Assembly (NCBI GenBank): GCA_050175015.1 | Contig: JBFXJJ010000005.1 | Span: 1-64,000 of the forward strand | From: Alphaproteobacteria bacterium | GTDB lineage: Bacteria > Pseudomonadota > Alphaproteobacteria > JBFXJJ01 | DNA: 64,000 nucleotides | Direction of reading: 5' to 3' | Shown here: positions 12,622 through 45,742 of the stretch, in pieces | How the letters are laid out: the number at the start of each line of letters is the position of its first letter | Numbering within the stretch: the stretch's first letter is position 1 | The notes under the pieces: model-generated | What the model was told of the DNA's origin: nothing | Seen by the model: only the letters and a program-made list of their open reading frames with translations | Database searches by the model: none | Position numbers and translations under genes: made by a program

Positions 12622-15168
12622 TTAAAAATTAAATTTTATTGCTAAAACGCCAAAATCTTCTTCTTTATCGCCATTATGGTTAAGATTGAACGAGTGCCCT
12701 AAACCAAGGCTTAAGCTATTATTATCATTTTCTATGAGATTATAATTTAAGCCTAAAGTTATCTGCTTGTTTTCAGGAGCAAGATTGGCACTTAAATTTT
12801 GATTGATGATAGATTTATCATAAGTCCTTTTAATCGGGAGGCTTAGTTCCGCATCTCCGTTAGTAATAGCTAGAGGCTGGTTAGCAAAGGCTGTAATTTT
12901 ATCATTTTTATTAAATAATCCCTTTTTGGTAATGCCAAAAGAAAGAGATTGTGATGTAAGCGTTGATATATCCTTTATGAGAGAGCTTTCCGAAACGCCT
13001 AAATTAGTAAAACCATTATAGAAACTGGCGGCTAAACCATAATTGTTATCAAATTCTGTGGCAAAATTAACACCAGTGAAGTAAGTATGGCTGTTTTTGT
13101 CGGTTGCAAAGGCTCCTCTGGCTTTTGTTCCTAAAAAGCCGTTTTCTTCTTCTAACGCACCTAATTCAAAGGCAAACATAGCTTTTTTGTTGTTTAATAA
13201 GAAAGGGGTTTTTAATTCTGAGACAAAGCCATTACTAATAATATCATCTTGAACCGCATTTTCGTAATAACTGTTGCTGCCATCATCATTATGATTAAAA
13301 AACAAGAATTTAATTTCATTATTAGCAAATGACGTTTTAAAACTTATATTATAACTATTATCTTGAAAATTAAGAAAAGGATTAGAAAAACTGCTGTCTA
13401 AATAGGCTAAATCATAATTAATAAATTCATCTTCATAAAGACCTAGGCTAAGGGCAGGGTTTTGGTTATATCCTAGTTCAAAACCTAAATTTTCTGCGGC
13501 ATTATAAGACATAGCAAAGCTTTTTAGAGATGGATTTTTTTCTTTGGTAAATTCATTTTCATCTTGCGTGAGTGAAGTTGAAATTTTGCCTTGCCCATTT
13601 AAATCTAATTCATAATCGGCGGACATTTTCATAACATTGTTTAAATACTGCTGGCTGTTACTGTGAGTTGAGCTTGTTGTAAGACTTTTGCCATTAAGAT
13701 AAAAAGGAAAATCCATACTATCCAAAACCATAACATCAACGCTGGCTAAGGCGTTTTGCAGGCTGTTTCCAAGTGCGCCTCCTGTTTCAATAACACTTCC
13801 GCTTAAAGATGCACTTCCTGACGATGTGTCAGTGCTAAGGGCTAAAGAGGCATTGCCAACAGGGGTTGTTGCGGCATCTAAATCCATAAAACCTTGGCCA
13901 TAGGTATCCTCATCGCTATAAATACCCGTTTTATTAGCTGTTGCAAAAAGTCTGTTAGTAATTTCTGCTGCGGTAACAGAGTCTCCAAACATATCTACAA
14001 GCAATGCTAGTCCGCCAGATACCATCGGGGTTGCCATAGATGTGCCGCTCATCGTGCCATAAGCATTGTCTGGAAGCGTAGAGTAAATGTTTGTTCCTGG
14101 CGCCGCAATGCAAAAATCTTTGGCTATTCCGCAGTGATTACTATAATCAGCTATAGTGCCGCTGGCATCGGTTGCAACAACCGTTACCCAAATATCTTCA
14201 AAACTTTCATAGTCTGTATAAGTTGGAAGCGCAGCATTAAAAGTTGGTTGGTCATTGCCTTGATTTCCCGCTGCCCAAACTAAGAATGTCCTGTTAGACA
14301 AGGCATTTTGTAAAGCTGTATAATACGTTGTGTTTTTTAAAGTAGAGGCTTTAGTTATCGCTTCTGCGGTATTAGATGCGAGGCAGTTGCTGTCATTTCC
14401 AAGCCAACAATAACTGTTATTAATAATATCTGCATTAAAATTATTTATAGCATAGTTAATAGCATTAGCCTCAAGCGTTGTTGTCGTCGCTGAATCTAAA
14501 TTAAGTGAATATAAATTAGCATTATAAGCAACTCCGTGCATTCCAGAATCATTTTTTGCAGCCCCGATGATACCAGCAACATGTGTTCCATGGTTATCAG
14601 CGGTTAAGCCGCTGCAAGTTGTAGAACCAGTTGCGGGGTCATAACAGCCGCTTACATTGGCTGCCAAATCAGTATGGTCGGTATCTACCCAGCCATCAAA
14701 TATGGCAACATTAACACCAGAGCCATTATAATTTCTTGCGTAGGCACCGCTGGCATTGACACTCGCTAGGGCATATTGGTTATTATATTCTGTGGTTTCA
14801 TAATGATCTTCGGAATATACCGTATTGTCATCATTACTAGATGACGTCGTTGTGCTGCTTTTAGATGAACCGCCACTTCCTGCGGCAACAGCAACACCAG
14901 CAATGGCGGCTCCTGCAACCACTGTTACTACTAGCGGCGTAAAAATGCTTCCTGCAGCAACCGCCGTGCCGCCAACGGTAACGGGTGAAGTGTATATGAC
15001 GTAAGGGTAGGGAGCTATTGCAAAATTTTCTTCTACAACATATCTTTCAGCCCAGTCTGATGAAAGCTCCAAACTATTATTGTTAAGAGGTAAGTTTTTA
15101 ATGTTTTCCTTGGCATTTGACACTAATGGAAAGAGCATAAAAACAGCAAAAATAATTTTTTTTATCAT
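12622..15168 (-). CDS. S8 subtilisin-family protease with C-terminal outer-membrane beta domain (autotransporter-like)
   Basis: Signal peptide; triad AIFDG / HGTHVAG / GTSMATP; oxyanion AAGN; amphipathic strands ending in Phe. Confidence 0.9.
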   Translation of the reverse strand: MIKKIIFAVFMLFPLVSNAKENIKNLPLNNNSLELSSDWAERYVVEENFAIAPYPYVIYTSPVTVGGTAVAAGSIFTPLVVTVVAGAAIAGVAVAAGSGGSSKSSTTTSSSNDDNTVYSEDHYETTEYNNQYALASVNASGAYARNYNGSGVNVAIFDGWVDTDHTDLAANVSGCYDPATGSTTCSGLTADNHGTHVAGIIGAAKNDSGMHGVAYNANLYSLNLDSATTTTLEANAINYAINNFNADIINNSYCWLGNDSNCLASNTAEAITKASTLKNTTYYTALQNALSNRTFLVWAAGNQGNDQPTFNAALPTYTDYESFEDIWVTVVATDASGTIADYSNHCGIAKDFCIAAPGTNIYSTLPDNAYGTMSGTSMATPMVSGGLALLVDMFGDSVTAAEITNRLFATANKTGIYSDEDTYGQGFMDLDAATTPVGNASLALSTDTSSGSASLSGSVIETGGALGNSLQNALASVDVMVLDSMDFPFYLNGKSLTTSSTHSNSQQYLNNVMKMSADYELDLNGQGKISTSLTQDENEFTKEKNPSLKSFAMSYNAAENLGFELGYNQNPALSLGLYEDEFINYDLAYLDSSFSNPFLNFQDNSYNISFKTSFANNEIKFLFFNHNDDGSNSYYENAVQDDIISNGFVSELKTPFLLNNKKAMFAFELGALEEENGFLGTKARGAFATDKNSHTYFTGVNFATEFDNNYGLAASFYNGFTNLGVSESSLIKDISTLTSQSLSFGITKKGLFNKNDKITAFANQPLAITNGDAELSLPIKRTYDKSIINQNLSANLAPENKQITLGLNYNLIENDNNSLSLGLGHSFNLNHNGDKEEDFGVLAIKFNF

Positions 15169-15197
15169 CTTATGTATTTTCTAAAATTATATGTTTT

Positions 15198-18100
15198 CTA
15201 AAAATTTTTTCTAAAACTTAAAATTGCAGTTGTTTCACTAGGGGCATTTTTTATATGATTAGGTTCTAAAGTATAGTTTAAGCCTAAACTTATTGATGTT
15301 GTATCCTTTGGTTTTAAGCTATAGAAAGCCCCAAAATTAATTTCTTGTCCCCGAGGGGTTAAATTAACTTTACTGTTTGAAATAGTAACTGAACCGTCAG
15401 TAGAAAGGTCGGTTGGCATTGTTAAGTTAGCTGTTCCTGAGACAACCCTGACAGGCTGATTTACATAAATTCCAAATTGATCGTGTTTTTCTGTGAAATC
15501 GTGCCCGATAAGACCAAACGTGAAATTATCAGTTCTGATATTGGACATATCTTTAACAATAGAATTATATGCTAAATTAGGTGTTGTTATAGCCGTGTTA
15601 TAACTGCTGACCAAGTTAAAATTATCGGCAACAGGTAACTTGGTATTAATTCCTGCAAACCATGTCGGGCTTGATGATGAAACATCAAAAAGCCCATCAC
15701 TTTTAGTTCCCAAGAAAGATTCTTTTTCATTTACGGTTCCTAATTGCAAAGAGATAGACGAACCGTGCTGCAAAGGAATGGAAAATTCACTTATGGCACC
15801 AATGACGCTTGAATCTCCATACATACTGCCTTTGCCTTGGAATATTCCTGATTTAAGTGCAAAAGTATCCATATTTAGGTTAAAAGAAAGAGCCTTGGCA
15901 TCTTCGGCAAGATTGATATAAGGATTAGAAAAAGCAGAATCATCAATTAAAAGTTCTTTGTTGATTGTGCTTTCAGAGAAGCCGAAATCATCAGAAGGAG
16001 AACGATTGTAAGATATTTTTAAGGTGTCACCACTCGTCGTTTTTTGAGTAAAAGCAAAATCGGCAAGCGATGTTATGCTGTCTTTTTTATCATCAGGCAA
16101 ATAAGAACCATTAGCTTGAGTATAATAATTAAATTCTAATTTGCTGTAATCGCCATACCTTACACCTTGAGAATCTTTTATGGCATCAAAATTATTCAAT
16201 GTTGCTTCTAATATGTTTCTTTTAGGTGATAAGCTAACGAATGTCCCCATATTGTAATAAAAAGGAAAATTCATATCGTCTAAAGCCATAACCGTATTTT
16301 GAGCCATACCAAACAAAAGACCATCACCAAAAGCATAACCACTATCAATAGAAGCCGATGATGCATCAAAAGAAATTGATTGGCTTTCAACGGAGGTTCC
16401 TAAGCTTAAAGAAAGTGAACCGACAGGGCTTGTGGCAGCATCTAAATCAAGCAAGCCTTGCCCATAAATTTCTTCATTAGCATAATCACCTGTTTTGTTG
16501 GCGGTATCAAAAAGCCTTTGAATAATTTGGTAGGTTTCAACTGAATGTCCAAACATATCAACTAATATTGCAAGCGCTCCAGACACGTGAGCCGTTGCCA
16601 TAGATGTGCCTGATTCATAGTCATATTGGTTGTTAGAAATTGATGAATAAATACCCGTGTCAGGCTGGTTGCCGTGTCCCCCTGGAGCCGAAATACAAAA
16701 ATCTTTAGCATCGCCGCAATAGTTGCTGTAGTTGGTGGCTTTGCCATCAGAACCAACAGCGTTAACAACAACCCAGTTTTTAATAAGATAAGAGCCGGGA
16801 TTATCCGGGTCCTCAATCCAATATTCATCAAATACAGTGTTGCCGTTAACACTGTCAACAACACTTGCGTAAAGAGGGATAGCCGCATCAACAGAAGGCT
16901 GCTCTTCCATTCCGTTTCCTGTTGGCCATACAAAAATTACTTTTTCTGCAATTCCTTCGGATAATATATCTAAATAAGGTCGATCATCAACGCCAGAACC
17001 AAGCCAGCCTGTAACAATATTCGTTGCCTCAGTTGAGCCGTATACGGCACAAGGATCATCGGTTGTAATGTTAGTACTGCTGTAAACTAAGTTACGTTCA
17101 ACACCGTTAATAGTTCTTCTTATGGTGCAATAGTTAGGATTCATAATGCCTATTCTTTGATCTACGCCGATGTCAAAGAAATGTGTCATTGGGTGTTTTA
17201 AGGCATTTTGAATCATAGTTTCGTTAATACTGCACAACTCCGTCCATACAGGGCTGTCATAGTTAGTATAATCGACACTGCTCATCCAGATATTGTTCGC
17301 ATTACATAAAACGCCAGTACTTTGGATAGCTGTGGTGAAAGCTCCTGAACGCCAAGTAGTTAATGCCGTGGTATATGCTGCGGTGTCTTCTACCGTATTG
17401 CCGTCAGCATCAGTTGTTGTGTAGTCATCAGGGTCAGGTGGCGTGGTTGTTAGATTGCTTAGGTATTGTTCTTTGGAATAAGCATAAAAGCGATCATAAG
17501 TTGGGAATATGTTAGAAGTTAAGATCATAGAATCATAAGCAACTCCCTGCATTTCATTGCCATCTTTAAGACCGGCAATAATGCCTGCAATATGAGTTGC
17601 CTCATCTTTTATTTCGTCTTTGTATTCTTCGCAGTCGTTTGTTCCTTTGTTATCAATAGCGTCATAACACATAGGAACGTTGGTAGTTTCATTGTCTACT
17701 CTAAAGTTTTCGTGTTCATAATCAACTAAACCATCAAGCAGGGCAATTCTAGCGCTGGATCCAGTGTAACCTCGAGCATAAGCAGAGCTTGCATTAATCA
17801 TATCAAGACCATACTGAGCTAGATACTCTGTGGTAACAATTCCATCACTACTCGAAGACGTTTCACTATCACCTCCGCCACCACCGACTCCTGCTGCAAC
17901 AACTCCTGCCGCCGCAACTCCGCCGATAGCCAGTGTTGTTATAACTGATGCCGGAATAACCGAAGCTGCTCCTGCTGCACCTATAGTAGTTGCGGTTGTA
18001 ACAGGTTTAACAACAGTTGGAATTACTCTTATATAGGTTGGTCGAGGATAAATATATGGGCTTGCAGCTAAAACATCTTCAAAGCCATTGTCAAGCAAAG

Positions 18101-18491
18101 AAAAAGTATTGTTATCTAAGGGGTTATTTAGATATTCAGCCTTTTCATAACCAACCTCTGTTTCCTCTGGTAAATCATTTGAAGTACTTTGGTTTGAATC
18201 GTTTAAGTGCTTGTCGTTATGACTTTTTTCAGGATAATCTGATGTCTGTTCGCTGAAAACTACGTTAATAATTTTACTGCTGGTTTCTATATCATCAATA
18301 GTAGCATTGTTGCTTAATTTTGTTGTTTTATGGTTAGTTGTATTATGGTTTTTTACAATGCTTCTAGTTTCAATATCATCAATTGCAGTATTATTATGGA
18401 AAATGGGAAAATCGTAGCCTTTGGCATTAGCTTCTAATGCCCAAAAAACTACGATAAAAGATAACAAATAGATCTTTTGCTTCATCAACAA
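15198..18491 (-). CDS. S8 subtilisin-like autotransporter-like paralogue with catalytic His replaced by Glu
   Basis: ALLDG / DEATHIAG / GTSMATA and PTGN; large insertions; C-terminal beta domain ending in Phe. Confidence 0.88.
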   Translation of the reverse strand: MLMKQKIYLLSFIVVFWALEANAKGYDFPIFHNNTAIDDIETRSIVKNHNTTNHKTTKLSNNATIDDIETSSKIINVVFSEQTSDYPEKSHNDKHLNDSNQSTSNDLPEETEVGYEKAEYLNNPLDNNTFSLLDNGFEDVLAASPYIYPRPTYIRVIPTVVKPVTTATTIGAAGAASVIPASVITTLAIGGVAAAGVVAAGVGGGGGDSETSSSSDGIVTTEYLAQYGLDMINASSAYARGYTGSSARIALLDGLVDYEHENFRVDNETTNVPMCYDAIDNKGTNDCEEYKDEIKDEATHIAGIIAGLKDGNEMQGVAYDSMILTSNIFPTYDRFYAYSKEQYLSNLTTTPPDPDDYTTTDADGNTVEDTAAYTTALTTWRSGAFTTAIQSTGVLCNANNIWMSSVDYTNYDSPVWTELCSINETMIQNALKHPMTHFFDIGVDQRIGIMNPNYCTIRRTINGVERNLVYSSTNITTDDPCAVYGSTEATNIVTGWLGSGVDDRPYLDILSEGIAEKVIFVWPTGNGMEEQPSVDAAIPLYASVVDSVNGNTVFDEYWIEDPDNPGSYLIKNWVVVNAVGSDGKATNYSNYCGDAKDFCISAPGGHGNQPDTGIYSSISNNQYDYESGTSMATAHVSGALAILVDMFGHSVETYQIIQRLFDTANKTGDYANEEIYGQGLLDLDAATSPVGSLSLSLGTSVESQSISFDASSASIDSGYAFGDGLLFGMAQNTVMALDDMNFPFYYNMGTFVSLSPKRNILEATLNNFDAIKDSQGVRYGDYSKLEFNYYTQANGSYLPDDKKDSITSLADFAFTQKTTSGDTLKISYNRSPSDDFGFSESTINKELLIDDSAFSNPYINLAEDAKALSFNLNMDTFALKSGIFQGKGSMYGDSSVIGAISEFSIPLQHGSSISLQLGTVNEKESFLGTKSDGLFDVSSSSPTWFAGINTKLPVADNFNLVSSYNTAITTPNLAYNSIVKDMSNIRTDNFTFGLIGHDFTEKHDQFGIYVNQPVRVVSGTANLTMPTDLSTDGSVTISNSKVNLTPRGQEINFGAFYSLKPKDTTSISLGLNYTLEPNHIKNAPSETTAILSFRKNF

Positions 18492-19767: not shown

Positions 19768-20810
19768 TTATTTTTTATCAAACATTTTGCTGTATTCACG
19801 AGTTTTACGATTTTTCCAATAACCGCGATGATAAGCATCACTTGCAATCAAAGGAATTACGCTGCCAGCTTCGGCATAAACCATTTGTTCGAATACGGTG
19901 TCAACTTTGCCCCAAGAACAAGCTTCTTTAAGAGTAGATGAGGAGCAAGCACCATCTCTAACATCAGCAACTGTAATTTGAATTGCGTATTTATGCATAT
20001 CAACATCTTTACCTAAAACTTCAGCGCAAACAACGGTATCTTGTACGAAGTTTTTAGGAACACCGCCGCCAATCATTAATAAACCGCTGGTGCCGCCTGC
20101 AATTTTGATGTTGGTTAATTCTCTAAAATCTCTTATAGAGTCAATCGTAACACATTTATCTGGGTTTTTATCTTGATGTAATACCAAGCCAAAGCCTGCA
20201 CTTGAATCTGTGAAAGCAGGGCAGAAAATTGGAACGTTATGTTCATATGCTAATTGAACTAAAGAATTTTTCTTTTTGGAATGTTTAGTTAAATAGCGTC
20301 CCATTTCTCTAATAAATTCTCTTGATGAATAAGGACGAGGTTCTAATTCATCAGCAATTTTACAAATAGTAGCATCGCAGTTTTGCAATTCTTCTTCATC
20401 AATATAGGTATCATAAATACGATCAATATAAAGTTCTCTTAAATCTTTATCATTAACATTTGGGCTGCCTTGATAATGTTTAAAGCCAAGAGCCTCAAAG
20501 AAATCCATATCAACAATGCTTGCCCCAGTTGAAACAATAGCATCAACCATATTATAACGAATTAAATCTGCATATAGCTGCATACAGCCGCCAGCTGATG
20601 TGGAACCTGCAAGCGTTAAAATATAGAGCAGTCTTTATCTTGCAGCATACGGTTATAAATTTCAGCTGCACGAGCAAGGTCTCTTGAGGTAAAGGACATT
20701 TTGCTCATAGAATCAATAATTGGTCTTGCATCAAAAGATGTAAAATCTATGTGTTCAATATGTTTGGTTAAAATATCTTTTTTGGTTAGGCTTTGGTTTT
20801 CGGTTTTCAT
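19768..20810 (-). pseudogene. speY: Deoxyhypusine-synthase-like SpeY, split by a 1-nt deletion (possibly an assembly error)
   Basis: ORFs 20616-20810 and 19768-20583 join as DCSIF-LTLAGSTSAGGCM if one base is added to the A4 run at 20618-20621; GGGVPKNF and SSSTLKEACSWGK motifs present. Confidence 0.85.
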
Positions 20811-36504: not shown

Positions 36505-37527
36505 TTGAGAAAAATAACAGCAATAGTAATATTTCTTATGGGAATATGGGGGCTTTATTCTTTTAATAATAACCAAGAATTTAAAGTTTTTAAAGGCAGT
36601 GCTATAGGAACTTATTATTCCATTAAAATTGCAGATGAAATTAATACTAAACAGATAAATGATGTGATTTTAAGCGAGATAGATAATGTAAACAATAAAA
36701 TGTCTTGCTTTAAAACCACGTCAGAATTGTCAAATTTTAATAATCTTGTCCCTAACGAATGGTTTAAAGTTTCTGATGATTTATTTGAGGTATTGTTAAA
36801 GGCAAGAGATGTTTTTGAATCTTCTAATGGCGCTTTTGATGTAACGGTTGGTGATTTAGTAGATCTTTGGGGATTTGGAACCAAAAATAAGGGCAGGGTA
36901 GATATTCCGTCATCGCAAGAAATTGCGGCTGCCAAAAAAACGGTTGGTTTTAATTTAATCGATTTTGATAGTGGAAATAAATCAATCAGAAAAAAAGCAA
37001 ACAGCAAAATCAACTTATCGGCAATAGCAAAAGGTGATTTAGTAGATAAGATTGCGCTTCATTTTGATAACTTAAAAATTAATAACTATATTGTTGAAAT
37101 AGGCGGCGAAACCAAAGTAAAAGGTTATCGTAATCCTAAAAATAAAGAGAAGTGGCGGATAGGCATCGAAAAACCAGATGCCAATCAAGAAGGCATATTA
37201 AGAATAGTTGCAATGCACAATATGTCAGTTGCTACATCTGGTGATTATCGCAATTTCTTTGATTATAACGGCAAACGCTATTCTCATACGATTAATCCCA
37301 AAACAGGGTTTCCCGTTACGCATAATATTGTTTCGGCAAGTGTTTTTAATGAGAGTTGTATGACAGCTGATGCCTACGCCACAGCTATTCTAGCCTTAGG
37401 CAAAGACGATGCTTTAAAATGGATTGCAGATAATAAGATTCCTGTTATTTTATATTTTGCTGAAGAAAATGATAAATTTGAAGAATATGTTTCAGATAAA
37501 GCTAAGGAAATTTTAAATGAATTGTGA
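36505..37527 (+). CDS. apbE: FAD:protein FMN transferase
   Basis: SAIAKG, EIGGE, ATSGDYR, SHTINPKTG, ADAYATA. Confidence 0.94.
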   Translation: MRKITAIVIFLMGIWGLYSFNNNQEFKVFKGSAIGTYYSIKIADEINTKQINDVILSEIDNVNNKMSCFKTTSELSNFNNLVPNEWFKVSDDLFEVLLKARDVFESSNGAFDVTVGDLVDLWGFGTKNKGRVDIPSSQEIAAAKKTVGFNLIDFDSGNKSIRKKANSKINLSAIAKGDLVDKIALHFDNLKINNYIVEIGGETKVKGYRNPKNKEKWRIGIEKPDANQEGILRIVAMHNMSVATSGDYRNFFDYNGKRYSHTINPKTGFPVTHNIVSASVFNESCMTADAYATAILALGKDDALKWIADNKIPVILYFAEENDKFEEYVSDKAKEILNEL

Positions 37528-37930
37528 TTTTTTCAGGCAGGAAGGGGTTGTTTCTGCTATTGATGACAATAACATAAGTATTAGCATTAGCGTTTGTTCA
37601 GGATGCCATGCTAGTGGAAATTGTGCGATGAAGCATTCTAGTGAAAGAATAATACAAGCGGCACAAAATCCAAAGTATAAAGAACTAAAAATAGGCTCGA
37701 AAGTTTTGGTATCCGTTGATAAAAAATTTGGAATTAAATCAATTTATTATTGTTATATAATTCCATTTTTTGTGCTTATTACTTCATTAGTTGCGGGATA
37801 TTCTGTTTTAGAAAATGAACTTTTATCGGTAATACTGTCTATCTTGGCATTAGTTGGTTATTATTTTTTTCTTTATTTTTATAGCAAAACAAAAGCAAAT
37901 AATCCTAATTTCATTATTGAAATTCTCTGA
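37517..37930 (+). CDS. rseC: RseC/MucC family protein
   Basis: CSGCH...C followed by two TM helices; precedes rnfB. Confidence 0.85.
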   Translation: MNCDFFRQEGVVSAIDDNNISISISVCSGCHASGNCAMKHSSERIIQAAQNPKYKELKIGSKVLVSVDKKFGIKSIYYCYIIPFFVLITSLVAGYSVLENELLSVILSILALVGYYFFLYFYSKTKANNPNFIIEIL

Positions 37931-37984
37931 TTATAGCTATATGTTAACCCTAGTTTTAATTTTTAAATTTTGTTGGAATAAAAT

Positions 37985-38851
37985 ATGAGCCCAATTTTAA
38001 ATTCCATTTTGGTTTTAAGCGGCAGTGGTATCTTAATTGCTGCTGTTTTGTACTTGGTGGCAAAAAAGTTTAAAGTTTATGAAGATCCTAGAATAGATGA
38101 AGTTGAGAAAATTTTGCCTGGAGCAAATTGTGGAGCTTGTGGATCGGCTGGATGCCATGCTTTTGCGGAACGTTTAGTCGGTTCTGATGAAGAAAATTTT
38201 GCTAAATGTTTTTGTCCTGTAGGTGGCAATAATACTATGAAAACCGTTGCTTCATATCTTGGTTTTGCCGCTTCAGATAAGGAAAAAACTATCGCTGTTT
38301 TAAGATGTAATGGTTCTAAGAAAAATGCTCCTCAAAAAGTAAAATATGAAGGAACCAAAAGTTGCCGCTTAGCTCATATGACGTTTGCTGGTGAAAGCGG
38401 TTGTCCTTATGGCTGTCTAGGTTTTGGTGATTGTGTAGAAGTTTGTAAATTTGGAGCTCTAAGTATTGATGAAGAAACGGGGCTTCCTGTTGTTGACGAA
38501 GAAAAGTGTACTTCTTGTGGAGCCTGTGTTGCTAAATGTCCTAGAAACCTTTTTGAAATAAGACCTGCGGGCAAAAACAACAAAAGAATTTATGTCGCTT
38601 GTATGAATCAAGAAAAAGGAGCAACTGCAAGAAAGAATTGTGTGGCCGCTTGTATTGGCTGTGGCAAATGCTCTAAGGTTTATGAAACAGATGCGATTGT
38701 AGTTAATAATAATCTTTCTTATATTAGCCCCAAGGTTGATATTGAGAATTATGGTTCTCAAATTGTTGGCTGTTGTCCTACGGGTGCTATTATCGGGGTT
38801 GGGATTGCATCTGAAAAAACAGAAAAAATTATAAAAGATAAGGAAGTTTAG
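37985..38851 (+). CDS. rnfB: Rnf complex subunit B
   Basis: LPGANCGACG..GC plus ferredoxin motifs. Confidence 0.93.
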   Translation: MSPILNSILVLSGSGILIAAVLYLVAKKFKVYEDPRIDEVEKILPGANCGACGSAGCHAFAERLVGSDEENFAKCFCPVGGNNTMKTVASYLGFAASDKEKTIAVLRCNGSKKNAPQKVKYEGTKSCRLAHMTFAGESGCPYGCLGFGDCVEVCKFGALSIDEETGLPVVDEEKCTSCGACVAKCPRNLFEIRPAGKNNKRIYVACMNQEKGATARKNCVAACIGCGKCSKVYETDAIVVNNNLSYISPKVDIENYGSQIVGCCPTGAIIGVGIASEKTEKIIKDKEV

Positions 38852-38853
38852 AT

Positions 38854-40185
38854 ATGGTAAAAACTTTTGCTGTAGGGGGGATTCATCCTCATGATAATAA
38901 GCTTTCAAACAAAGTTGAAATATATCCGGTTCCGATTCCTAAAGTAGTTTATGTGCCGTTATCTCAACACTTAGGTGCGCCGGCAAAAGCTATTGTAAAT
39001 AAGGGCGATGAAGTAAAAGTTGGAACCTTAATTGCCGAAAGCTCTTCTTTTATCTCTGCCAATATTCATTCTCCTGTTTCTGGGAAAGTTTCTAAAGTAG
39101 ATAAAGTTTTGGGTTCCTCAGGTTATCTTGAAGATATGATTGTTATTAATGTTGAGGGTGATGTTTGGGAAGATGAAATTGATCGTTCTAAAGATTTGAT
39201 TTCCGATATTAAAATGTCATCAAAGGATATTATTAGTAAAATTAAGGAAAAAGGTATTGTTGGTATGGGAGGAGCAGGTTTTCCAACTCATGTCAAAATT
39301 TCTGTTCCTGATGGTAAAAAAGCAGAATATTTGCTAATTAATGGTGTGGAATGTGAACCATATTTAACCTCTGATCACAGATTGATGCTTGAAAAAAGCG
39401 AAGAAATTATGGTTGGAATAAAAATTCTTATGAAAGCTTTAAACGTCGACACGGCAGTAATAGGCATTGAAGCGAACAAGCCAGATGCAATTGCAAAATT
39501 AAGAGACGTTTCTAAGAAATATGATGGAATAAAGATTCAGCCTCTTAAAGTTAAATATCCGCAGGGCGGAGAAAAACAGCTTATCGCTGCGGCTCTAAAA
39601 AGAGAAGTTCCTTCTAAAGGACTGCCGATTGATGTTGGTGTTATTGTTCAAAACGTTGGAACCGTTTTTGCGGTTTATGAAGCTGTTCAAAAAAACAAAC
39701 CATTAATAGAAAGAATTGTGACCGTTAGTGGTAAATGTCTTAAGGAACCGTCTAATTTCTTGTCAAGAATAGGTGTTCCGTTCGGAATCTTAATTGATAT
39801 GGCAGGAGGAGTGCCAGAAAATACGGCAAAATTAATTAATGGTGGCCCTATGATGGGCAAAACTATGGTTTCTGATGAAATACCTGTTACCAAAACCTGC
39901 TCAGGTCTTTTGTTAATATCAGAGAAAGATGCCGTAAGAGATGAAGAAACTCCTTGTATAAGATGCGGCCGTTGTTCAGAAGCATGTCCTGCTGGGCTTG
40001 AACCATTTATGATTGCGAGTGTTTCTAAAATTGGTGATTGGGAAAGACAGAGAGAAAATCACGTCTTCGACTGTATTGAATGCGGTTCGTGTACTCATGT
40101 TTGTCCTGCAAAAATACCTCTTCTTGATTACTGCCGTTTGGCTAAAGCTGAACTGCGCAAGATTGATGCTAAAAAAAGGAGTTAA
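38854..40185 (+). CDS. rnfC: Rnf complex subunit C
   Basis: GMGGAGFPT, ECEPYLTSD, YPQGGEK, two 4Fe-4S motifs. Confidence 0.96.
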   Translation: MVKTFAVGGIHPHDNKLSNKVEIYPVPIPKVVYVPLSQHLGAPAKAIVNKGDEVKVGTLIAESSSFISANIHSPVSGKVSKVDKVLGSSGYLEDMIVINVEGDVWEDEIDRSKDLISDIKMSSKDIISKIKEKGIVGMGGAGFPTHVKISVPDGKKAEYLLINGVECEPYLTSDHRLMLEKSEEIMVGIKILMKALNVDTAVIGIEANKPDAIAKLRDVSKKYDGIKIQPLKVKYPQGGEKQLIAAALKREVPSKGLPIDVGVIVQNVGTVFAVYEAVQKNKPLIERIVTVSGKCLKEPSNFLSRIGVPFGILIDMAGGVPENTAKLINGGPMMGKTMVSDEIPVTKTCSGLLLISEKDAVRDEETPCIRCGRCSEACPAGLEPFMIASVSKIGDWERQRENHVFDCIECGSCTHVCPAKIPLLDYCRLAKAELRKIDAKKRS

Positions 40186-40190
40186 ATTTC

Positions 40191-41171
40191 GTGTTTATAG
40201 TTTCAACTTCACCACATATTAAATCAGATGTTTCAACTTCTAAAATTATGTTCGGAGTAGTTATTGCTCTTATTCCAGCTATAATTGCCGCACTCGCTTT
40301 CTTTGGTATGGGTGCTGTCAAAGTTATTGTTGTATCTGTTTTGTCTTGCGTTATTTTTGAATATCTCATTCAAAAAATGTTGTTCAAGCAAGAAAATATA
40401 AGTATTAAAGATGGCTCAGCTATCATTTCAGGTCTTCTTTTGGCTTTTAACCTGCCTGCAATAGTTCCTTTATGGACAGTTGTTGTTGGGGCATTGGTTA
40501 CAATTGGGGTTGCTAAAATGTCATTTGGCGGCCTTGGAAAAAACCCATTTAATCCAGCAATTGTTGGACGTTTGTTTTTGATGATTTCTTTTCCATCATA
40601 TATGTCAACATGGGGAGTCCCAAGACTTTTGGATTTTTCTAATACGGATGCTCAAACAGGAGCCACCACACTTGGTGTGATTAAAGAAGCTGTCGCTAAT
40701 GGTCAGTCTTTAACAGACGTTAACCTGCCTTCCTATTGGGATTTGTTCGTTGGACAAATTGGAGGTTCTTTAGGAGAGGTCTCTGCTTTAGCTCTGCTTT
40801 TAGGCGGAATATATATGCTGATTAGAAAAATAATTTCTTGGCATATCCCTGTGGCATATTTAGGCACCGTTGCCTTTATTTCATTGCTTCTTTGGTATTA
40901 TGATCCGACTAAATTTGCAGATCCTATAGTTCATCTGATTTCTGGTGGTGTCATGCTTGGAGCCATATTTATGGCAACCGATTATGCTACTTCGCCAATG
41001 TATAGCAAAGGTAAAATTGTATTTGGAATTGGCTGTGGCTTACTTACGATTTCAATTAGAAATTTTGGGGCATATCCTGAAGGTGTTGCTTTTTCTATTT
41101 TAATTATGAACTCTTTCGTGCCTTTGATTAATAATTATTTTAAACCAAGAGTTTTCGGAACTAAGGGGTAA
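40191..41171 (+). CDS. rnfD: Rnf complex subunit D
   Basis: FGGLGKNPFNPA, FMN site TGAT, FMATD. Confidence 0.95.
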   Translation: MFIVSTSPHIKSDVSTSKIMFGVVIALIPAIIAALAFFGMGAVKVIVVSVLSCVIFEYLIQKMLFKQENISIKDGSAIISGLLLAFNLPAIVPLWTVVVGALVTIGVAKMSFGGLGKNPFNPAIVGRLFLMISFPSYMSTWGVPRLLDFSNTDAQTGATTLGVIKEAVANGQSLTDVNLPSYWDLFVGQIGGSLGEVSALALLLGGIYMLIRKIISWHIPVAYLGTVAFISLLLWYYDPTKFADPIVHLISGGVMLGAIFMATDYATSPMYSKGKIVFGIGCGLLTISIRNFGAYPEGVAFSILIMNSFVPLINNYFKPRVFGTKG

Positions 41172-41174
41172 ATT

Positions 41175-41804
41175 ATGAAACAAAAAATTTCTTCAAGTTT
41201 TATTAATATGGTTGGGGTTTTGTTTTTTGTAACCCTAATTTCTGCTAGTTCTCTTGCTGGAGTTTATAAAGTTACTAAAAATATTATCAATGAGATTGCG
41301 ATAAAAAAACAACAGGAAGCTCTAAAAGCTGTTATTGCAACGGATTATGACAATAATCCATTTGAAGAAAAAACGGTTGCAGGAAATATTGAGGTTTATC
41401 CAGCTAAGAAAAATGGCGATGTTACATCATATGCTATAAAATCCGTGAGTTCTAAGGGGTATAATGGCAATATCGAAATTATGCTTGGCTTACTTCCTGA
41501 TGGCGTTGTAAGTAATTTGGTTATTGTATCTCAATCTGAGACCCCAGGATTAGGAACAAGAGTTACAGAACCTCCTTTTGTTAATCAATTTAATGGCAAA
41601 AATTTGGCAAAAGGAATTTTAAAAGTTAAAAAAGATGGCGGTGATGTTGATGCGATAACAGGAGCAACTATTAGCTCTAGAGCTGTGACTGATGCTATAG
41701 CTAGAGCTTACTATTATTTTGTTAATGGTAAAGAGATGAGCAACGTGGAAAATGATGCTAAAACTAGTTCTGATAGTAAAACTGGCGCTAGCAAACTTTA
41801 TTAA
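41175..41804 (+). CDS. rnfG: Rnf complex subunit G
   Basis: ETPGLG; FMN site DAITGATISS. Confidence 0.95.
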   Translation: MKQKISSSFINMVGVLFFVTLISASSLAGVYKVTKNIINEIAIKKQQEALKAVIATDYDNNPFEEKTVAGNIEVYPAKKNGDVTSYAIKSVSSKGYNGNIEIMLGLLPDGVVSNLVIVSQSETPGLGTRVTEPPFVNQFNGKNLAKGILKVKKDGGDVDAITGATISSRAVTDAIARAYYYFVNGKEMSNVENDAKTSSDSKTGASKLY

Positions 41805-41839
41805 TTATTTTTTTACTACTATTTTTAAGGTGCTGACTA

Positions 41840-42427
41840 ATGAATAATTGGCAAAATTTAACTAAAGGAATTTTTAAAGAAAATCCTACTTTTGTTATGC
41901 TGCTGGGAATGTGTCCAACCCTAGGGGTTACAACTTCGGCAATTAATGGATTAGGTATGGGAGTGGCAACTCTTTTTGTGCTGATTATGGCTAATATTAC
42001 GGTTGCTGCTGTAAAAAACGTTATTCCTGATAAGGTTAGAATTCCTTGTTATATTGTAATTATTGCATCTTTTGTTACGATTGTTGATATGCTTATGGCG
42101 GCGTATTTGCCAGCACTCCACGCCCAACTCGGAATTTTTATTCCGTTAATCGTTGTTAACTGCATTATTTTAGGAAGAGCTGAAGCCTTTGCGGCTAAAA
42201 ATGGTATTTTTGCATCAATTCTTGATGCTGTGGGTATGGGGCTTGGGTTTACTCTTAGTTTAACCCTGCTTGGCAGTGTTCGTGAAATTTTAGGTAATGC
42301 TTCAATCTTTGGTTATGACTTGGGATTCAGCGGCAGTAAGATTATGTTCTTTATAACTCCGCCTGGAGCATTCTTAGTTTTGGGTTACTTGGTTGCTCTC
42401 ATTAATTGTTGTCGTAAAAAGGCTTAA
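41840..42427 (+). CDS. rnfE: Rnf complex subunit E
   Basis: LGMCPTL, PLIVVNCIILGRAE. Confidence 0.95.
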   Translation: MNNWQNLTKGIFKENPTFVMLLGMCPTLGVTTSAINGLGMGVATLFVLIMANITVAAVKNVIPDKVRIPCYIVIIASFVTIVDMLMAAYLPALHAQLGIFIPLIVVNCIILGRAEAFAAKNGIFASILDAVGMGLGFTLSLTLLGSVREILGNASIFGYDLGFSGSKIMFFITPPGAFLVLGYLVALINCCRKKA

Positions 42428-42451
42428 AATAAGTTTTAAAAGGTTTATAAA

Positions 42452-43027
42452 ATGGAATATGTAGCTATCATATTTACAGCAGTATTTGTAAATAATATTG
42501 TTTTATCACAGTTTCTCGGAATTTGTCCTTTTCTTGGCGTATCCAGTAAAAAAACAACCGCTTTTGGTATGGGTATGGCGGTTATGTTTGTTATGACATT
42601 GGCAACAATCGTAACTTGGGCCATATTTAATTATGTTTTAAAACCATTTGATATTGTTTTTATGCAAACTGTTACCTTTATTTTGGTAATTGCTGGTTTA
42701 GTTCAAATGGTGGAAATCATCTTAAAAAAAGTAGCGCCTCCATTATATCAGGCTTTAGGAATTTTCTTACCTCTTATTACTACTAACTGTACGGTATTAG
42801 GGGTTGCTTTGCTTGTTGTTCAAAAAGAATTTTCCTTATTTCAAGGCGTAGCATACGCCGTTGGAAATTCTTTAGGATTTACATTGGCAATAGTAGTATT
42901 TGCGGGAATAAGAGAGCATACAGCTTTACTTTCTATGCCGAAAGCAATGAAGGGTGCTCCGATTGCTCTTATAACTGCTAGCATTTTATCCTTGGCTTTT
43001 ATGGGCTTTGCAGGACTTGGAAATTAA
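42452..43027 (+). CDS. rnfA: Rnf complex subunit A
   Basis: [19 protein letters not shown]. Confidence 0.95.
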
Positions 43028-43030
43028 GCC

Positions 43031-44179
43031 TTGATGTGTGATGCCACGAAAAATAAAGTTCAATTCAAATCTACAGGAATAGCTTTTGATAACAGCAATC
43101 TTGATAAAAGTGTTGCGGTATTAATGAGTGGCGGAGTAGACAGCAGTGTAACAGCCGTATTGTTGAAAGAAGAGGGCTGGAATGTCGTTGGGGTAACAAT
43201 GACTATTCCTGTTGCTGATGGTTCTTGCAATGGAACCGCTGCTTGCTGTGGTGCTGGTGCCGCTTTAATCTGTGCTAAAATCGGTATTCCTCATTTTATT
43301 GCATATACAGAAGAAGTTTTTACTAGAGAAGTAATCGATAGATTTAGGAATAGTTATCTTGAGGGCGGAACTCCAAGCCCGTGCGTTGATTGTAATACCT
43401 TTTTGAAATTCGGAGCGGTTTGGAACATCATAGAAGAAAACTTAGGAATTAAACACTTAGCTACGGGGCATTATGCTGAGATTAGACAGCTTGAAAACAA
43501 TGAATTTGCTTTAGCTAGAGGCAAAGATGCCAATAAAGATCAAAGCTATTTCCTTTATGGGATTCCTAAGGTGAAGCTGCCCTTTTTACATTTTCCTTTA
43601 GCCGCAACAACTAAAGATAAGACCAGATTAATTGCAGAAAAAACTAAACTACCCTGTGCTAAAAGGGCAGAAAGTATGGAAATATGCTTTGCTCCCAATG
43701 GCGATTACCGCCATATCTTTAGTAATGATATGCCTCGAACAGGAAATATTGTCGACAAAGACGGAAAGGTTTTAGGGGTTCACCAAGGAATTTATCGTTA
43801 TACTTTAGGGCAGAGAAGAGGTCTTGGTATTTCAAGTGCAGATGGTGAACCATTGTATGTTATAGCACTTAAAACAGATACCAATGAAGTGGTTGCGGGT
43901 AAAAAAGACGATTTGTTTACTAATACGGTTTTTGCTTGTAACGTTAATATTTTGATGCCTGAAAAGCTTAACAAATCTTGCAAGCTTTTTGGAAAAATTA
44001 GATCAACAGGAGCAGCGGAAAAATGTGAAGTTGCCTATTATGATGATATGATTTGTGCCGTTTTTGAAAAACCTGTTCTTGCTCCTGCAAAAGATCAACG
44101 ACTTGTTATCTATGATGAAAGCGGTATTGTTGTTGCTGGAGGATATATTACCTCTAAAACAGGGCTCTCTTTATCTTAA
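43031..44179 (+). CDS. mnmA: tRNA 2-thiouridylase (CC and CxxC type)
   Basis: SGGVDS, PCVDCN, ATGHY, KDQSYFL, ESMEICF, YTLGQRRG. Confidence 0.93.
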   Translation: MMCDATKNKVQFKSTGIAFDNSNLDKSVAVLMSGGVDSSVTAVLLKEEGWNVVGVTMTIPVADGSCNGTAACCGAGAALICAKIGIPHFIAYTEEVFTREVIDRFRNSYLEGGTPSPCVDCNTFLKFGAVWNIIEENLGIKHLATGHYAEIRQLENNEFALARGKDANKDQSYFLYGIPKVKLPFLHFPLAATTKDKTRLIAEKTKLPCAKRAESMEICFAPNGDYRHIFSNDMPRTGNIVDKDGKVLGVHQGIYRYTLGQRRGLGISSADGEPLYVIALKTDTNEVVAGKKDDLFTNTVFACNVNILMPEKLNKSCKLFGKIRSTGAAEKCEVAYYDDMICAVFEKPVLAPAKDQRLVIYDESGIVVAGGYITSKTGLSLS

Positions 44180-44261
44180 AAATTATAAATATTTTGAAAT
44201 TAGTTCTTACTCTTTCTTTAAAGTGAGCTAGATATTATCTAAAGTTAAGATTCATTTACAT

Positions 44262-44296
44262 AAAAAAAGAGAGAGGAAATGGGGCTCCTCTCTCTT
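44262..44296 (-). terminator. Strong intrinsic terminator oriented for the minus strand
   Basis: Perfect 11-bp stem 44267-44277/44286-44296; A7 at 44262-44268 reads as U7 on the minus strand. Confidence 0.85.
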
Positions 44297-44390
44297 CAGT
44301 TTAGCTATAAACGGTTTCCCCCCTTGTTATTATTATCATTTTTTTATTATTGTTTGTTTATAGCTCTTATTTTTATTTTTTTCTTTATAT
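44262..44390 (-). ncRNA. Candidate ~130-nt small RNA with an A-rich loop
   Basis: TTGACA(44423-44418)-16-TAATAT promoter, 10-bp stem 44303-44312/44356-44365, terminator; no credible CDS. Confidence 0.55.
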
Positions 44391-44439
44391 AATAAATATT
44401 ACATAATTTTAACAAAGTGTCAACATTGAAATAACAAAA

Positions 44440-44476
44440 TTAGCAAAAAATACCACTTTAAAGTGCTTTTTGCTAA
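44440..44476. promoter_or_regulatory. Extended inverted repeat upstream of the sRNA promoter
   Basis: TTAGCAAAAA...TTTTTGCTAA enclosing the palindrome CACTTTAAAGTG. Confidence 0.45.
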
Positions 44477-44794
44477 TAAAACATTGTTTTATATAGCATA
44501 ATTCTACTAAAAAATGTTAGATTTGTTAAAATATTGTAACAATTGTATGGCGTTTTTTAACCTAAAATAACTGATTTTAGCAAAAATAACTGAGCATTAA
44601 TTCCTATAGCACCAAATATCAAAGCGATTCTATAAAATTATTCATCATTTTTTAAAATAAAAAAAGATAGCAAATGCCATATAAACATTAAAAAAGATAG
44701 TAATTAATTTTTCTATAACATTTTAAAATTAAATTATTACTTTATAAATGAATAATCAGGTTGTGCAGCTTTAGAGCTGGTTTTGATATTGTTA

Positions 44795-45742
44795 TTATGA
44801 TTTTTTACAAAAACATTTTAGAAATTTAGGCAGATTAATAATCAAAAAACGTTTAATAATTTGAGGAAGTCTCAATGCAACATATTTTAAAAGCTTAAAA
44901 AAGGATGTTTCGGTTAAAATAACATTGGTTGCTAAATCTAAATAATAATCAGCATATTCTTTTTTGCCAATCTTAGCGTAATATTTATGGGTTAGAATTT
45001 TATCCATAAAATTATCTACATAGCCTGTTTGGCGATCCGTATTAGTTATACCTGTTGTGAGTCTGTTGTAAACGGAAGGTTTTATATCGGGTAAATATTT
45101 GCCCTTGCCATGGTTGCCAAGCAATGAGTTTAAGAAAAAATCACCGCCTTTTAACAAATTATATTCATAAGGCAGGGGCATAATAACATTACGAAAGAAA
45201 GAAGAGGAGGTGTGAAAAAACACCTTTCTTTTAATAAGGTCTTCACAACTGGCATCGCTAGATTTTTGCAAAGTAGTTGTGTTATACACTTCATCTTTCC
45301 AAATAATGTCGTGGTAACATACAGAATAGTCAGGATTGCTTTCTAGGAAATCAAATTGTATCTGTAATTTATTCTCATCAGTCCAATAGTCATCGCATTC
45401 ACAAATAGCCATATATTTGGTTTTTATATCATCAAAAAAATTCTTAAAGCCGGCATTCCTAGGTTCTTTAGTGAATTGATTTTCTTTTCTAATAATGGTT
45501 TTAATAATATTAGGAAATTTTTCAGCATATTCTTTTACAATTTTGGTTGTATCATCGGTCGAAGCATCATCATGAATAATTATGATAAATGGAAAGTTTG
45601 TTTTCTGCATTAAAAAGCTATCTAAAGCGGCAGCAATAAAACGTTCGTGGTTATAAGCTATGGCTGCAATAGTAAGAAGAGGAATTTTAGAATTCCAATT
45701 TTTCATTATTTCAGCTTCGTTTTTTTTAAACATTTTAAGCAC
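44795..45742 (-). CDS. GT2 family glycosyltransferase
   Basis: AYNHE, HDDASTD, CECDDYWTDENKLQ. Confidence 0.92.
   Translation of the reverse strand: MLKMFKKNEAEIMKNWNSKIPLLTIAAIAYNHERFIAAALDSFLMQKTNFPFIIIIHDDASTDDTTKIVKEYAEKFPNIIKTIIRKENQFTKEPRNAGFKNFFDDIKTKYMAICECDDYWTDENKLQIQFDFLESNPDYSVCYHDIIWKDEVYNTTTLQKSSDASCEDLIKRKVFFHTSSSFFRNVIMPLPYEYNLLKGGDFFLNSLLGNHGKGKYLPDIKPSVYNRLTTGITNTDRQTGYVDNFMDKILTHKYYAKIGKKEYADYYLDLATNVILTETSFFKLLKYVALRLPQIIKRFLIINLPKFLKCFCKKS

What the first reader, a model, noticed from the sequence alone, without database searches (positions are those of the whole stretch)
44262..44476. Free-standing sRNA candidate that mimics an mRNA leader: possible Hfq or sRNA sponge
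Seen (minus strand): TTGACA-16-TAATAT, then a perfect 10-bp stem (AGCUAUAAAC/GUUUAUAGCU) presenting a 43-nt loop AAACAAUAAUAAAAAAAUGAUAAUAAUAACAAGGGGGGAAACC, then an 11-bp terminator with U7. No start codon follows the SD-like G6 and no minus-strand gene lies downstream. A long palindrome sits just upstream of the -35. Known: (ARN)n tracts bind the Hfq distal face, Pseudomonas CrcZ titrates Hfq through AANAANAA motifs, and GcvB/AbcR-type sRNAs target A/C-rich enhancers and SD sequences. Inference: a regulated decoy RNA. A Fur-like DNA site (AATGATAATAATAAC) is an alternative reading of part of the loop.
Basis: partly seen in the sequence, partly recalled or inferred. Interest (0 to 1): 0.7.

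Follow-up and report, generated by a model that had tools for sequence, protein, structure and literature searches.

The report
Orphan small RNA, likely sRNA decoy
Between two facing operons of an uncultured alphaproteobacterium sits a promoter, a hairpin with a large A-rich loop and a terminator that are predicted to make a ~130-base RNA, likely a decoy that soaks up C-rich regulatory RNAs on the chaperone Hfq, but neither its expression nor its conservation could be shown.

Summary
The anatomy is as described: on the minus strand, a perfect -35, a 10-bp stem, a 43-nt loop and a U7 terminator (z -4.5). The host is an AT-rich alphaproteobacterium with Hfq and no close relative in the databases. 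The loop shares a 16-nt word with the Hfq-binding tract of E. coli ChiX (2 of 5,000 shuffles). Its G6 end is complementary to published alphaproteobacterial anti-SD seeds, as in the Caulobacter sponge CrfA. The best partner in the genome is a 16-nt perfect complement in a predicted C-rich loop after an oligoendopeptidase gene (p about 0.004). No alpha-r8, AbcR or CrfA family member was found, no homologue, and no RNA run. The scan has not noted this on other DNA. Best reading: a free-standing Hfq-bound decoy RNA (0.33). Rivals: only the distant terminator of the polysaccharide operon (0.25), a base-pairing sRNA using its C-rich terminator loop (0.2), and a plus-strand 3'UTR RNA (0.1). The Fur reading is not supported.

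The parts
44439..44478 (.). Imperfect palindrome centred about 70 nt upstream of the predicted start; either an operator or a weak terminator of the upstream polysaccharide operon (-12.4 kcal/mol, U-rich tail on the minus strand only)
   Evidence: (core unique in the genome); no match to NtrC, LsrB, CRP, FNR or sigma-54 motifs
44396..44423 (-). Sigma-70-type promoter, TTGACA-16-TAATAT (predicted)
44409..44424 (.). CtrA-like box (one mismatch) over the -35; not above background (5.7 such sites per kb of intergenic DNA)
   Evidence: ctrA present
44259..44389 (-). Predicted small RNA of about 130 nt; both ends inferred
44366..44389 (-). A-rich 5' single strand with 5 consecutive AAN (6 ARN) triplets
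44356..44365 (-). 5' arm of the 10-bp stem
   Evidence: (pair probabilities 0.91-1.0)
44313..44355 (-). 43-nt loop, 33 purines, predicted 81% unpaired; resembles a translation initiation region
44336..44351 (-). 16-nt word identical to the AAN tract of E. coli ChiX; predicted Hfq distal-face site
44315..44330 (-). SD-like decoy site with G6 at 44323-44318; 16-nt perfect complement at G000:C12 about 20786-20801 (-)
44303..44312 (-). 3' arm of the 10-bp stem
44262..44296 (-). Intrinsic terminator (-17.1 kcal/mol, rank 53 of 365) with a CCCC loop and a U7 tail (predicted Hfq proximal-face site)
44301..44339 (-). 12-codon ORF starting inside the loop, with no SD before it; probably incidental
44279..44392 (+). 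37-codon hydrophobic ORF antisense to the RNA; scores as non-coding
43031..44179 (+). mnmA, last gene of the rnf operon (flanking gene)
44795..45742 (-). Glycosyltransferase, last gene of the rfbB-rfbA polysaccharide cluster (flanking gene)

Best explanation
The stretch holds a promoter match, a 10-bp stem with a 43-nt purine-rich loop and a U7 terminator on the minus strand, and it likely makes a ~130-nt RNA that is predicted to bind Hfq and would act as a decoy for C-rich anti-Shine-Dalgarno regulatory RNAs. Steps: (1) transcription from TTGACA-16-TAATAT to the U7 terminator, inferred from motifs; (2) the stem holds the loop open, predicted by folding; (3) the AAN tracts dock on the distal face of Hfq and the U tail on the proximal face, as for ChiX, inferred from sequence identity and from published binding of ChiX by Caulobacter Hfq; (4) the SD-like G6 end pairs with C-rich loops, most strongly one after the oligoendopeptidase gene on contig C12, a predicted pairing only; (5) with no start codon behind the SD, the partner would be sequestered or degraded and its mRNA targets freed, inferred by analogy with CrfA. 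The upstream palindrome may make expression conditional (untested).
For: Hfq is present in the ntrX-trkA-hfq-hflX context and is closest to Caulobacter Hfq (E 2e-34). Caulobacter Hfq binds A18 tightly and binds ChiX about as well as E. coli Hfq does (PMC6561178, passages). A 16-nt word is shared with ChiX, whose AAN motifs drive competition for Hfq (PMC7987339, passages); it occurs once in the genome, with about 1e-5 expected per 130-nt window and 2 of 5,000 shuffles reaching that length. The G6 region pairs with this genome's 16S tail at -11.4 kcal/mol, reached by 1.4% of 2,003 gene starts, and 91 of 2,003 leaders use GGGG. [quoted passage not shown] The best partner among 11,838 intergenic windows (top 150 rescored for accessibility) gives 16 bp and -22.3 kcal/mol net, against -18.9 for the next; 72 of 20,000 flank shuffles reach 16 nt. 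A separate free-standing C8-loop RNA candidate pairs at about -13 kcal/mol net. 21 of 25 intergenic promoter matches of this strength point into genes.
Against: There is no expression evidence and no homologue: 0 of 150 class genomes and 0 of 150 phylum genomes match the single-sequence model, and only short AT-rich matches appear in 40 relatives, plasmids and phages. No same-order genome exists to test covariation. The known anti-SD families gave no match over cut-off in this genome (alpha-r8, its FGase marker gene, alpha-r15). The C12 complement also reads on its other strand as part of a G-U-rich terminator of folC, and on the pairing strand it has no U tail, so it may never exist as a stable RNA. 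ChiX and the partner were both picked after seeing the sequence, so their p-values are optimistic. The stem is not rare if G-C content is ignored (209 of 1,000 shuffles). The RNA's own CCCC terminator loop could pair with G6 (-8.7 kcal/mol duplex) and mask it.
Confidence: 0.33

Rival explanations
1. There is no separate RNA: the hairpin is the distant terminator of the minus-strand polysaccharide operon (and a weak stop for rnf-mnmA), and the rest is AT-rich filler or the orphaned promoter and leader of a gene lost at this variable junction.
For: The glycosyltransferase ends on the same strand at 44795 and no strong terminator was called in between. 62 of 291 terminators with a co-oriented upstream gene lie at least 150 nt away, and 15 of 291 at least 400 nt. 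There are 62 comparable stems in intergenic DNA. The loop looks like an ordinary leader, and 1 of 7 exact 18-nt matches in other genomes is a real leader.
Against: It must explain as coincidence a perfect -35 with the right orientation and distance, a stem with 3 G-C pairs (6 of 1,000), a top-0.24% purine window, the ChiX word and the 16-nt complement. The median terminator distance is 39 nt. The palindrome at 44439-44478 could stop the upstream operon earlier.
Confidence: 0.25
2. It is a class II-type Hfq sRNA that represses mRNAs: the A-rich tracts load Hfq, and the CCCC terminator loop is the seed that pairs with G-rich Shine-Dalgarno sequences.
For: Only 6 of 365 called terminators have CCC in the loop. 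The best Rfam match is CyaR, far below cut-off (23.7 against 47 bits). C-rich loops act as seeds in Caulobacter CcnA and AbnZ (PMC8959179, PMC11724286, passages). The ChiX word fits this reading equally well.
Against: The seed is only 4 C in a 6-8-nt loop. The 49 of 2,003 start regions with a short complement show no common function by eye. It does not explain the SD-like G6 or the stem around it.
Confidence: 0.2
3. The working RNA is the plus strand: a 3'UTR piece of the rnf-mnmA transcript whose U-rich loop with C6 blocks G-rich ribosome sites, and a sibling of the oligoendopeptidase 3'UTR, which has the same 16-nt word.
For: The plus strand folds nearly as well (-27.6 against -29.2 kcal/mol) and has a U-rich tail after the second stem. 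No terminator lies between the mnmA stop and this hairpin. The shared 16-mer is explained just as well.
Against: The perfect -35 and the clean U7 are both on the minus strand. No plus-strand promoter match lies between 44180 and 44300. The tail after the strong hairpin is interrupted on the plus strand. The 30 best predicted leader targets show no common function by eye.
Confidence: 0.1
4. It is an Ibs/Sib-like type I toxin-antitoxin pair: the plus-strand 37-residue hydrophobic peptide is the toxin, and the minus-strand RNA, which spans the ORF and its ribosome site, is the antitoxin.
For: The geometry matches Ibs/Sib (PMC8594479, passages). Only 3 of 481 intergenic ATG ORFs of 25-70 codons are this hydrophobic. 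The SD and AUG are buried in the hairpin.
Against: Its codon score is below all 334 real membrane segments of this genome and its T content (70%) is above all of them. 4.3% of 20,000 shuffles give such a frame. The SD is 2 nt from the AUG. There is no promoter of its own, no tandem copy, no charged C-terminus and no Pfam match, and it lies only 99 nt from the upstream gene.
Confidence: 0.04
5. It is a short leader-peptide gene or attenuator relic: translation of the 12-codon Ile-rich frame would cover the terminator's 5' arm and set read-through antisense into mnmA.
For: The AUG is exposed in an A-rich loop, three Ile codons follow, and the stop falls at the base of the stem 5 nt before the terminator.
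Against: There is no SD and no gene downstream on that strand. Ile codons follow automatically from AAU repeats, and the ChiX tract also contains an AUG.
Confidence: 0.04

Closest known systems
CrfA, the Hfq-dependent sponge of the alpha-r8 sRNAs SisA-D in Caulobacter crescentus (PMC12559287; Rfam RF01527)
   Same: Free-standing, similar length (Rfam model 136 positions), alphaproteobacterial, and a G/A-rich stem-loop complementary to an anti-SD seed; this loop end pairs with the alpha-r8 core with one G-U pair.
   Different: No match to RF01527; no alpha-r8 RNA or FGase gene in this genome; the loop carries a ChiX-type AAN tract. The CrfA sequence and structure figures were not seen, so loop sizes could not be compared.
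ChiX (MicM/SroB), the class II Hfq sRNA of E. coli (NC_000913 507204-507287)
   Same: Identical 16-nt AAN word and a U-tailed terminator; ChiX can also draw Hfq away from mRNAs (PMC7987339).
   Different: Here the tract lies inside a closed loop; ChiX was not among the Rfam matches at E up to 10; nothing longer than the 16-nt word is shared. Convergence is more likely than homology.
CyaR/RyeE (Rfam RF00112)
   Same: A-rich 5' part and a terminator with a C-rich loop; best Rfam match.
   Different: 23.7 bits against a cut-off of 47, E 0.07; the longest word shared with E. coli CyaR is 6 nt; no CRP site upstream.
CrcZ, the Hfq-titrating RNA of Pseudomonas (PMC4063720, start of abstract only)
   Same: Many AAnAAnAA words (9 overlapping matches).
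   Different: Much shorter, with a sigma-70-type promoter rather than the sigma-54 promoter recalled for crcZ; crc was not searched; G6 is not explained.
Ibs/Sib type I toxin-antitoxin loci
   Same: An antisense RNA spanning a whole small hydrophobic ORF.
   Different: The ORF scores as non-coding, is single-copy and has no promoter of its own.

Membership tests
CrfA (RF01527) | Covariance-model score at or above the gathering cut-off | tested here: not met
   0 matches at E up to 10 in the genome; the Caulobacter control is over cut-off
sRNA sponge (CrfA type, functional class) | Independently transcribed non-coding RNA | not testable with these tools
   Promoter and terminator motifs only; no RNA run available
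sRNA sponge (CrfA type, functional class) | Exposed site complementary to the seed of a regulatory RNA in the same genome | tested here: inconclusive
   16-nt complement and a C8-loop candidate found, but neither is a known or expressed sRNA; alpha-r8 and alpha-r15 are not over cut-off
sRNA sponge (CrfA type, functional class) | Hfq encoded by the host | tested here: met
sRNA sponge (CrfA type, functional class) | Lowers the partner's level or activity by pairing (compensatory mutants) | not testable with these tools
   needs experiments
Class II Hfq sRNA (ChiX type) | At least 4 AAN/ARN triplets in single strand plus a U-tailed terminator | tested here: met
   4 consecutive AAN occur 0.8 times per kb of intergenic DNA, so the feature is not rare by itself
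Class II Hfq sRNA (ChiX type) | Stability depends on the distal and proximal faces of Hfq | not testable with these tools
   needs Hfq mutants
CyaR (RF00112) | Score of at least 47 bits | tested here: not met
   23.7 bits
Any Rfam 15 family | Gathering score reached in the window | tested here: not met
   0 matches in 64 kb
Type I toxin-antitoxin (Ibs/Sib) | ORF under 70 aa with a hydrophobic segment, spanned by the antisense RNA | tested here: met
Type I toxin-antitoxin (Ibs/Sib) | Coding-like sequence, polar or aromatic C-terminal tail, distance from flanking genes or tandem copies, own promoter | tested here: not met
   criteria from PMC2887945 passages; the C-terminus has aromatic but no charged residues
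Fur-regulated site | Fur box above background and a Fur protein | tested here: not met
   13 of 19, reached at 121 intergenic positions; the only family member is Irr-like
CsrB/Rsm sponge | csrA gene in the host | tested here: not met
   no PF02599 match in a genome 99.4% complete

The most novel reading that the evidence does not exclude
A purpose-built translation-start decoy: one stem-clamped loop holds both a ChiX-grade Hfq distal site and a generic G6 Shine-Dalgarno bait. It would titrate a whole set of unrelated C-rich RNAs of this genome (an oligoendopeptidase 3'UTR, a C8-loop sRNA, an HTH-gene 3'UTR) in a deep alphaproteobacterial lineage where none of the alpha-r8, AbcR and CrfA families was found. 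That would be an independent invention of the CrfA logic, possibly from an orphaned mRNA leader.
Probability: 0.15. Interest if true: 0.65.

Novelty: new member of a known kind. Interest (0 to 1): 0.4.

Why it matters
Few free-standing sponge RNAs have been characterised, and CrfA was the only alphaproteobacterial one seen in the searches made. A second, unrelated one with a predicted 16-bp partner would show that anti-SD regulators and their decoys arise repeatedly. The exact ChiX word in a distant lineage would also point to a convergent optimum for the Hfq distal face. Both points can be tested with synthetic RNA and this genome's Hfq without culturing the organism. The value is limited because the element is known from one genome and has no expression or conservation support.

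Tried and rejected
Expression: no RNA holder listed; this is no evidence either way. Laying three DNA runs gave the source contig and only short foreign pieces. Relatives: no genome of the same order; one MnmA relative at 70% identity in the protein collection whose DNA could not be fetched, and the rest at 53% or less; the metagenome scan returned one locus at 36% identity; the best of 400 class genomes was 45% identical and not syntenic. A one-sequence covariance model found no paralogue in the genome (next best E 1.1) and nothing in 150 class and 150 phylum genomes; such a model is insensitive, so this is weak. An exact 18-nt loop pattern gave 7 unrelated genomes and a 19-nt pattern gave 1 viral contig, none with the stem and terminator in the folds inspected. 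Plasmid and phage searches gave only partial AT-rich matches. RF01867 was searched by mistake for a CrfA-type family and is irrelevant. Operator identity: NtrC and LsrB motifs from PMC10746234 and PMC8844928, and recalled CRP, FNR and sigma-54 motifs, are all absent from 44380-44600; the palindrome core has no second intergenic copy within one mismatch. The CtrA-like box is not above background. Target prediction gave no coherent gene set for either strand. No homologue search result exists for the 37-residue ORF beyond Pfam, so its relatives are untested. CRISPR or tracr origin was rejected: no other copy of the stem arms in the genome. Gene calls in my scripts are crude longest-ORF calls (2,125 ORFs), so intergenic sets include some small genes, tRNAs and rRNAs. 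The unpublished genome G040 enters only as one row of the tallies.

Full report
Observation. The predicted RNA folds better than all 200 shuffles (z -4.52). The stem alone is only moderately unusual: 209 of 1,000 shuffles of the intergenic region give one, 6 of 1,000 with at least 3 G-C pairs, and the genome has 62 and 18 of these. The promoter match is more telling: 21 of the 25 intergenic matches of this strength point into a gene, and this is one of the 4 that do not. The terminator ranks 53 of 365 by energy. No Rfam family reaches its cut-off in the window.

Setting. The element lies between the rnf-mnmA operon (plus strand, ending at 44179) and a polysaccharide cluster (minus strand, ending at 44795). 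The genome is 2.5 Mb and 35% G+C. It is alphaproteobacterial by its permuted tmRNA, CtrA and Caulobacter-like Hfq, and it has no same-order relative among the genomes held. Hfq is present. CsrA was not found, and the single Fur-family protein is most like Irr.

The loop. It has 33 purines in 43 nt, matched by 0.24% of intergenic windows, and is predicted 81% unpaired. It shares a 16-nt word with the AAN tract of E. coli ChiX, fetched from the reference genome. The word occurs once in this genome, and 2 of 5,000 shuffles share as long a word with ChiX. I chose ChiX from recall, so this overstates the surprise. ChiX's AAN motifs are what let it displace mRNAs from Hfq (PMC7987339, passages), and Caulobacter Hfq binds ChiX about as well as E. 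coli Hfq does (PMC6561178, passages). The G6 end pairs with this genome's 16S tail more strongly than 98.6% of 2,003 gene starts, and G-run SDs are in real use here (91 of 2,003 with GGGG). No start codon follows it. The same end is complementary, with one G-U pair, to the alpha-r8 core bound by the G/A-rich stem-loop of the Caulobacter sponge CrfA (PMC12559287, passages, section 7 and part 1 of section 12) and to AbcR aSD2 (PMC8844928, passages). The CrfA figures and supplements were not seen and may bear on how close the likeness is.

Partners. Alpha-r8, its marker gene, alpha-r15 and CrfA gave no match over cut-off. A scan of 11,838 intergenic windows, with the best 150 rescored for accessibility, put one site well ahead: 16 perfect pairs (-22.3 kcal/mol net) with a predicted C-rich hairpin loop 56-71 nt after the stop of an M3 oligoendopeptidase gene on C12. 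Shuffling the flanks of G6 reached 16 nt in 72 of 20,000 trials. Against this, the site has no U tail on that strand, and its other strand reads as the folC terminator. Second was a site after a gene on C1 (-18.9). A separate, convincing free-standing candidate at C12:79388-79468 (promoter match, 14-bp hairpin with a C8 loop, terminator) pairs at about -13 kcal/mol net. C-tract loops that recognise G runs are known from RepG (PMC8295292, start of abstract) and from Caulobacter CcnA and AbnZ (passages). None of these partners is shown to be expressed.

Conservation and expression could not be tested. No RNA run holds the stretch. Searches of relatives, metagenomes, 300 genomes with a one-sequence model, GTDB and viral patterns, plasmids and phages found no homologue. 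The scan's own index has no look-alike.

Rivals. (a) Null: the hairpin may just end the polysaccharide transcript 498 nt after its last stop; 15 of 291 terminators lie at least 400 nt out. It needs several coincidences, and the palindrome could stop that transcript earlier. (b) A class II repressor with the CCCC terminator loop as seed: such loops are rare here (6 of 365) and the best Rfam hint is CyaR at 23.7 against 47 bits, but no coherent targets emerged. (c) A plus-strand 3'UTR RNA with an anti-SD loop: it folds almost as well but lacks a promoter match and a clean U tail. (d) An Ibs/Sib-like pair: a 37-codon hydrophobic ORF lies exactly opposite (geometry from PMC8594479 and criteria from PMC2887945, passages), but its codons score below all 334 real membrane segments of the genome. 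(e) A 12-codon Ile-rich frame in the loop has no SD and no downstream gene. (f) A Fur site is at background level. The palindrome matches none of the motifs tried (NtrC and LsrB from PMC10746234, passages; the others recalled).

Verdict. The anatomy is real and reads best as a lineage-specific Hfq-binding small RNA (about 0.55-0.6 that a discrete minus-strand RNA exists). Within that, a decoy for C-rich anti-SD RNAs is the likeliest job (0.33 overall). It would work like CrfA with a ChiX-type Hfq site, but it is a member of neither family. Shown: the sequence features, Hfq, the ChiX word, the complementarities and their shuffle statistics. Inferred: transcription, Hfq binding, the partner and the regulatory effect. 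Interest 0.4: testable in vitro and plausible, but a known kind of device resting on one genome.

Noticed in passing
G000:C12:79353-79475 (+), locus L021: Free-standing sRNA candidate antisense to both flanking genes: TTGAAT-17-TATCAT, a 14-bp hairpin with a C8 loop, then a terminator; no sRNA family match. Looks like a RepG/AbnZ-type anti-G-run regulator and deserves its own study.
   Followed up: partly
G000:C12:20725-20856, locus L022: The convergent folC / M3 oligoendopeptidase gap folds on both strands; the minus strand shows a loop with two C runs and shares 16 nt with the finding.
   Followed up: partly
G000:C1:199160-199255 (+), locus L023: The 3'UTR of an HTH gene has two C-rich tracts, one in the loop of its terminator; a possible 3'UTR-derived anti-SD RNA.
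   Followed up: partly
G000:C1:188715-188800 and G000:C13:2850-2940: G7 runs flanked as in the finding, away from start codons: one before a terminator after hemW, one about 120 nt upstream of a probable sensor gene. Possible further sites for C-rich RNAs.
   Followed up: no
G000:C3:123166-123490 and G000:C26:305-701: Two tmRNA genes: a permuted alphaproteobacterial one and a second one-piece gene with a different tag on a 10-kb contig (mobile element or contamination).
   Followed up: no
window 37517-44179 (+): An rseC-like gene, then rnfB-C-D-G-E-A, then mnmA; this MnmA's nearest named relatives in the protein collection are from other phyla (about 50% identity), which suggests the block was acquired.
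   Followed up: no
window 44216-44243: Ten bases of the palindrome core recur at 44217-44226, next to a small 13-nt inverted repeat, between mnmA and the terminator; unexplained.
   Followed up: no
window 12622-18491 (-): Two tandem subtilisin-like autotransporter-type ORFs (848 and 1,097 aa), judged by eye from the translations.
   Followed up: no
G000:C15 about 16645-16845 (+): A small Flp/Fap pilin-like ORF below my gene-calling cut-off, judged by eye.
   Followed up: no
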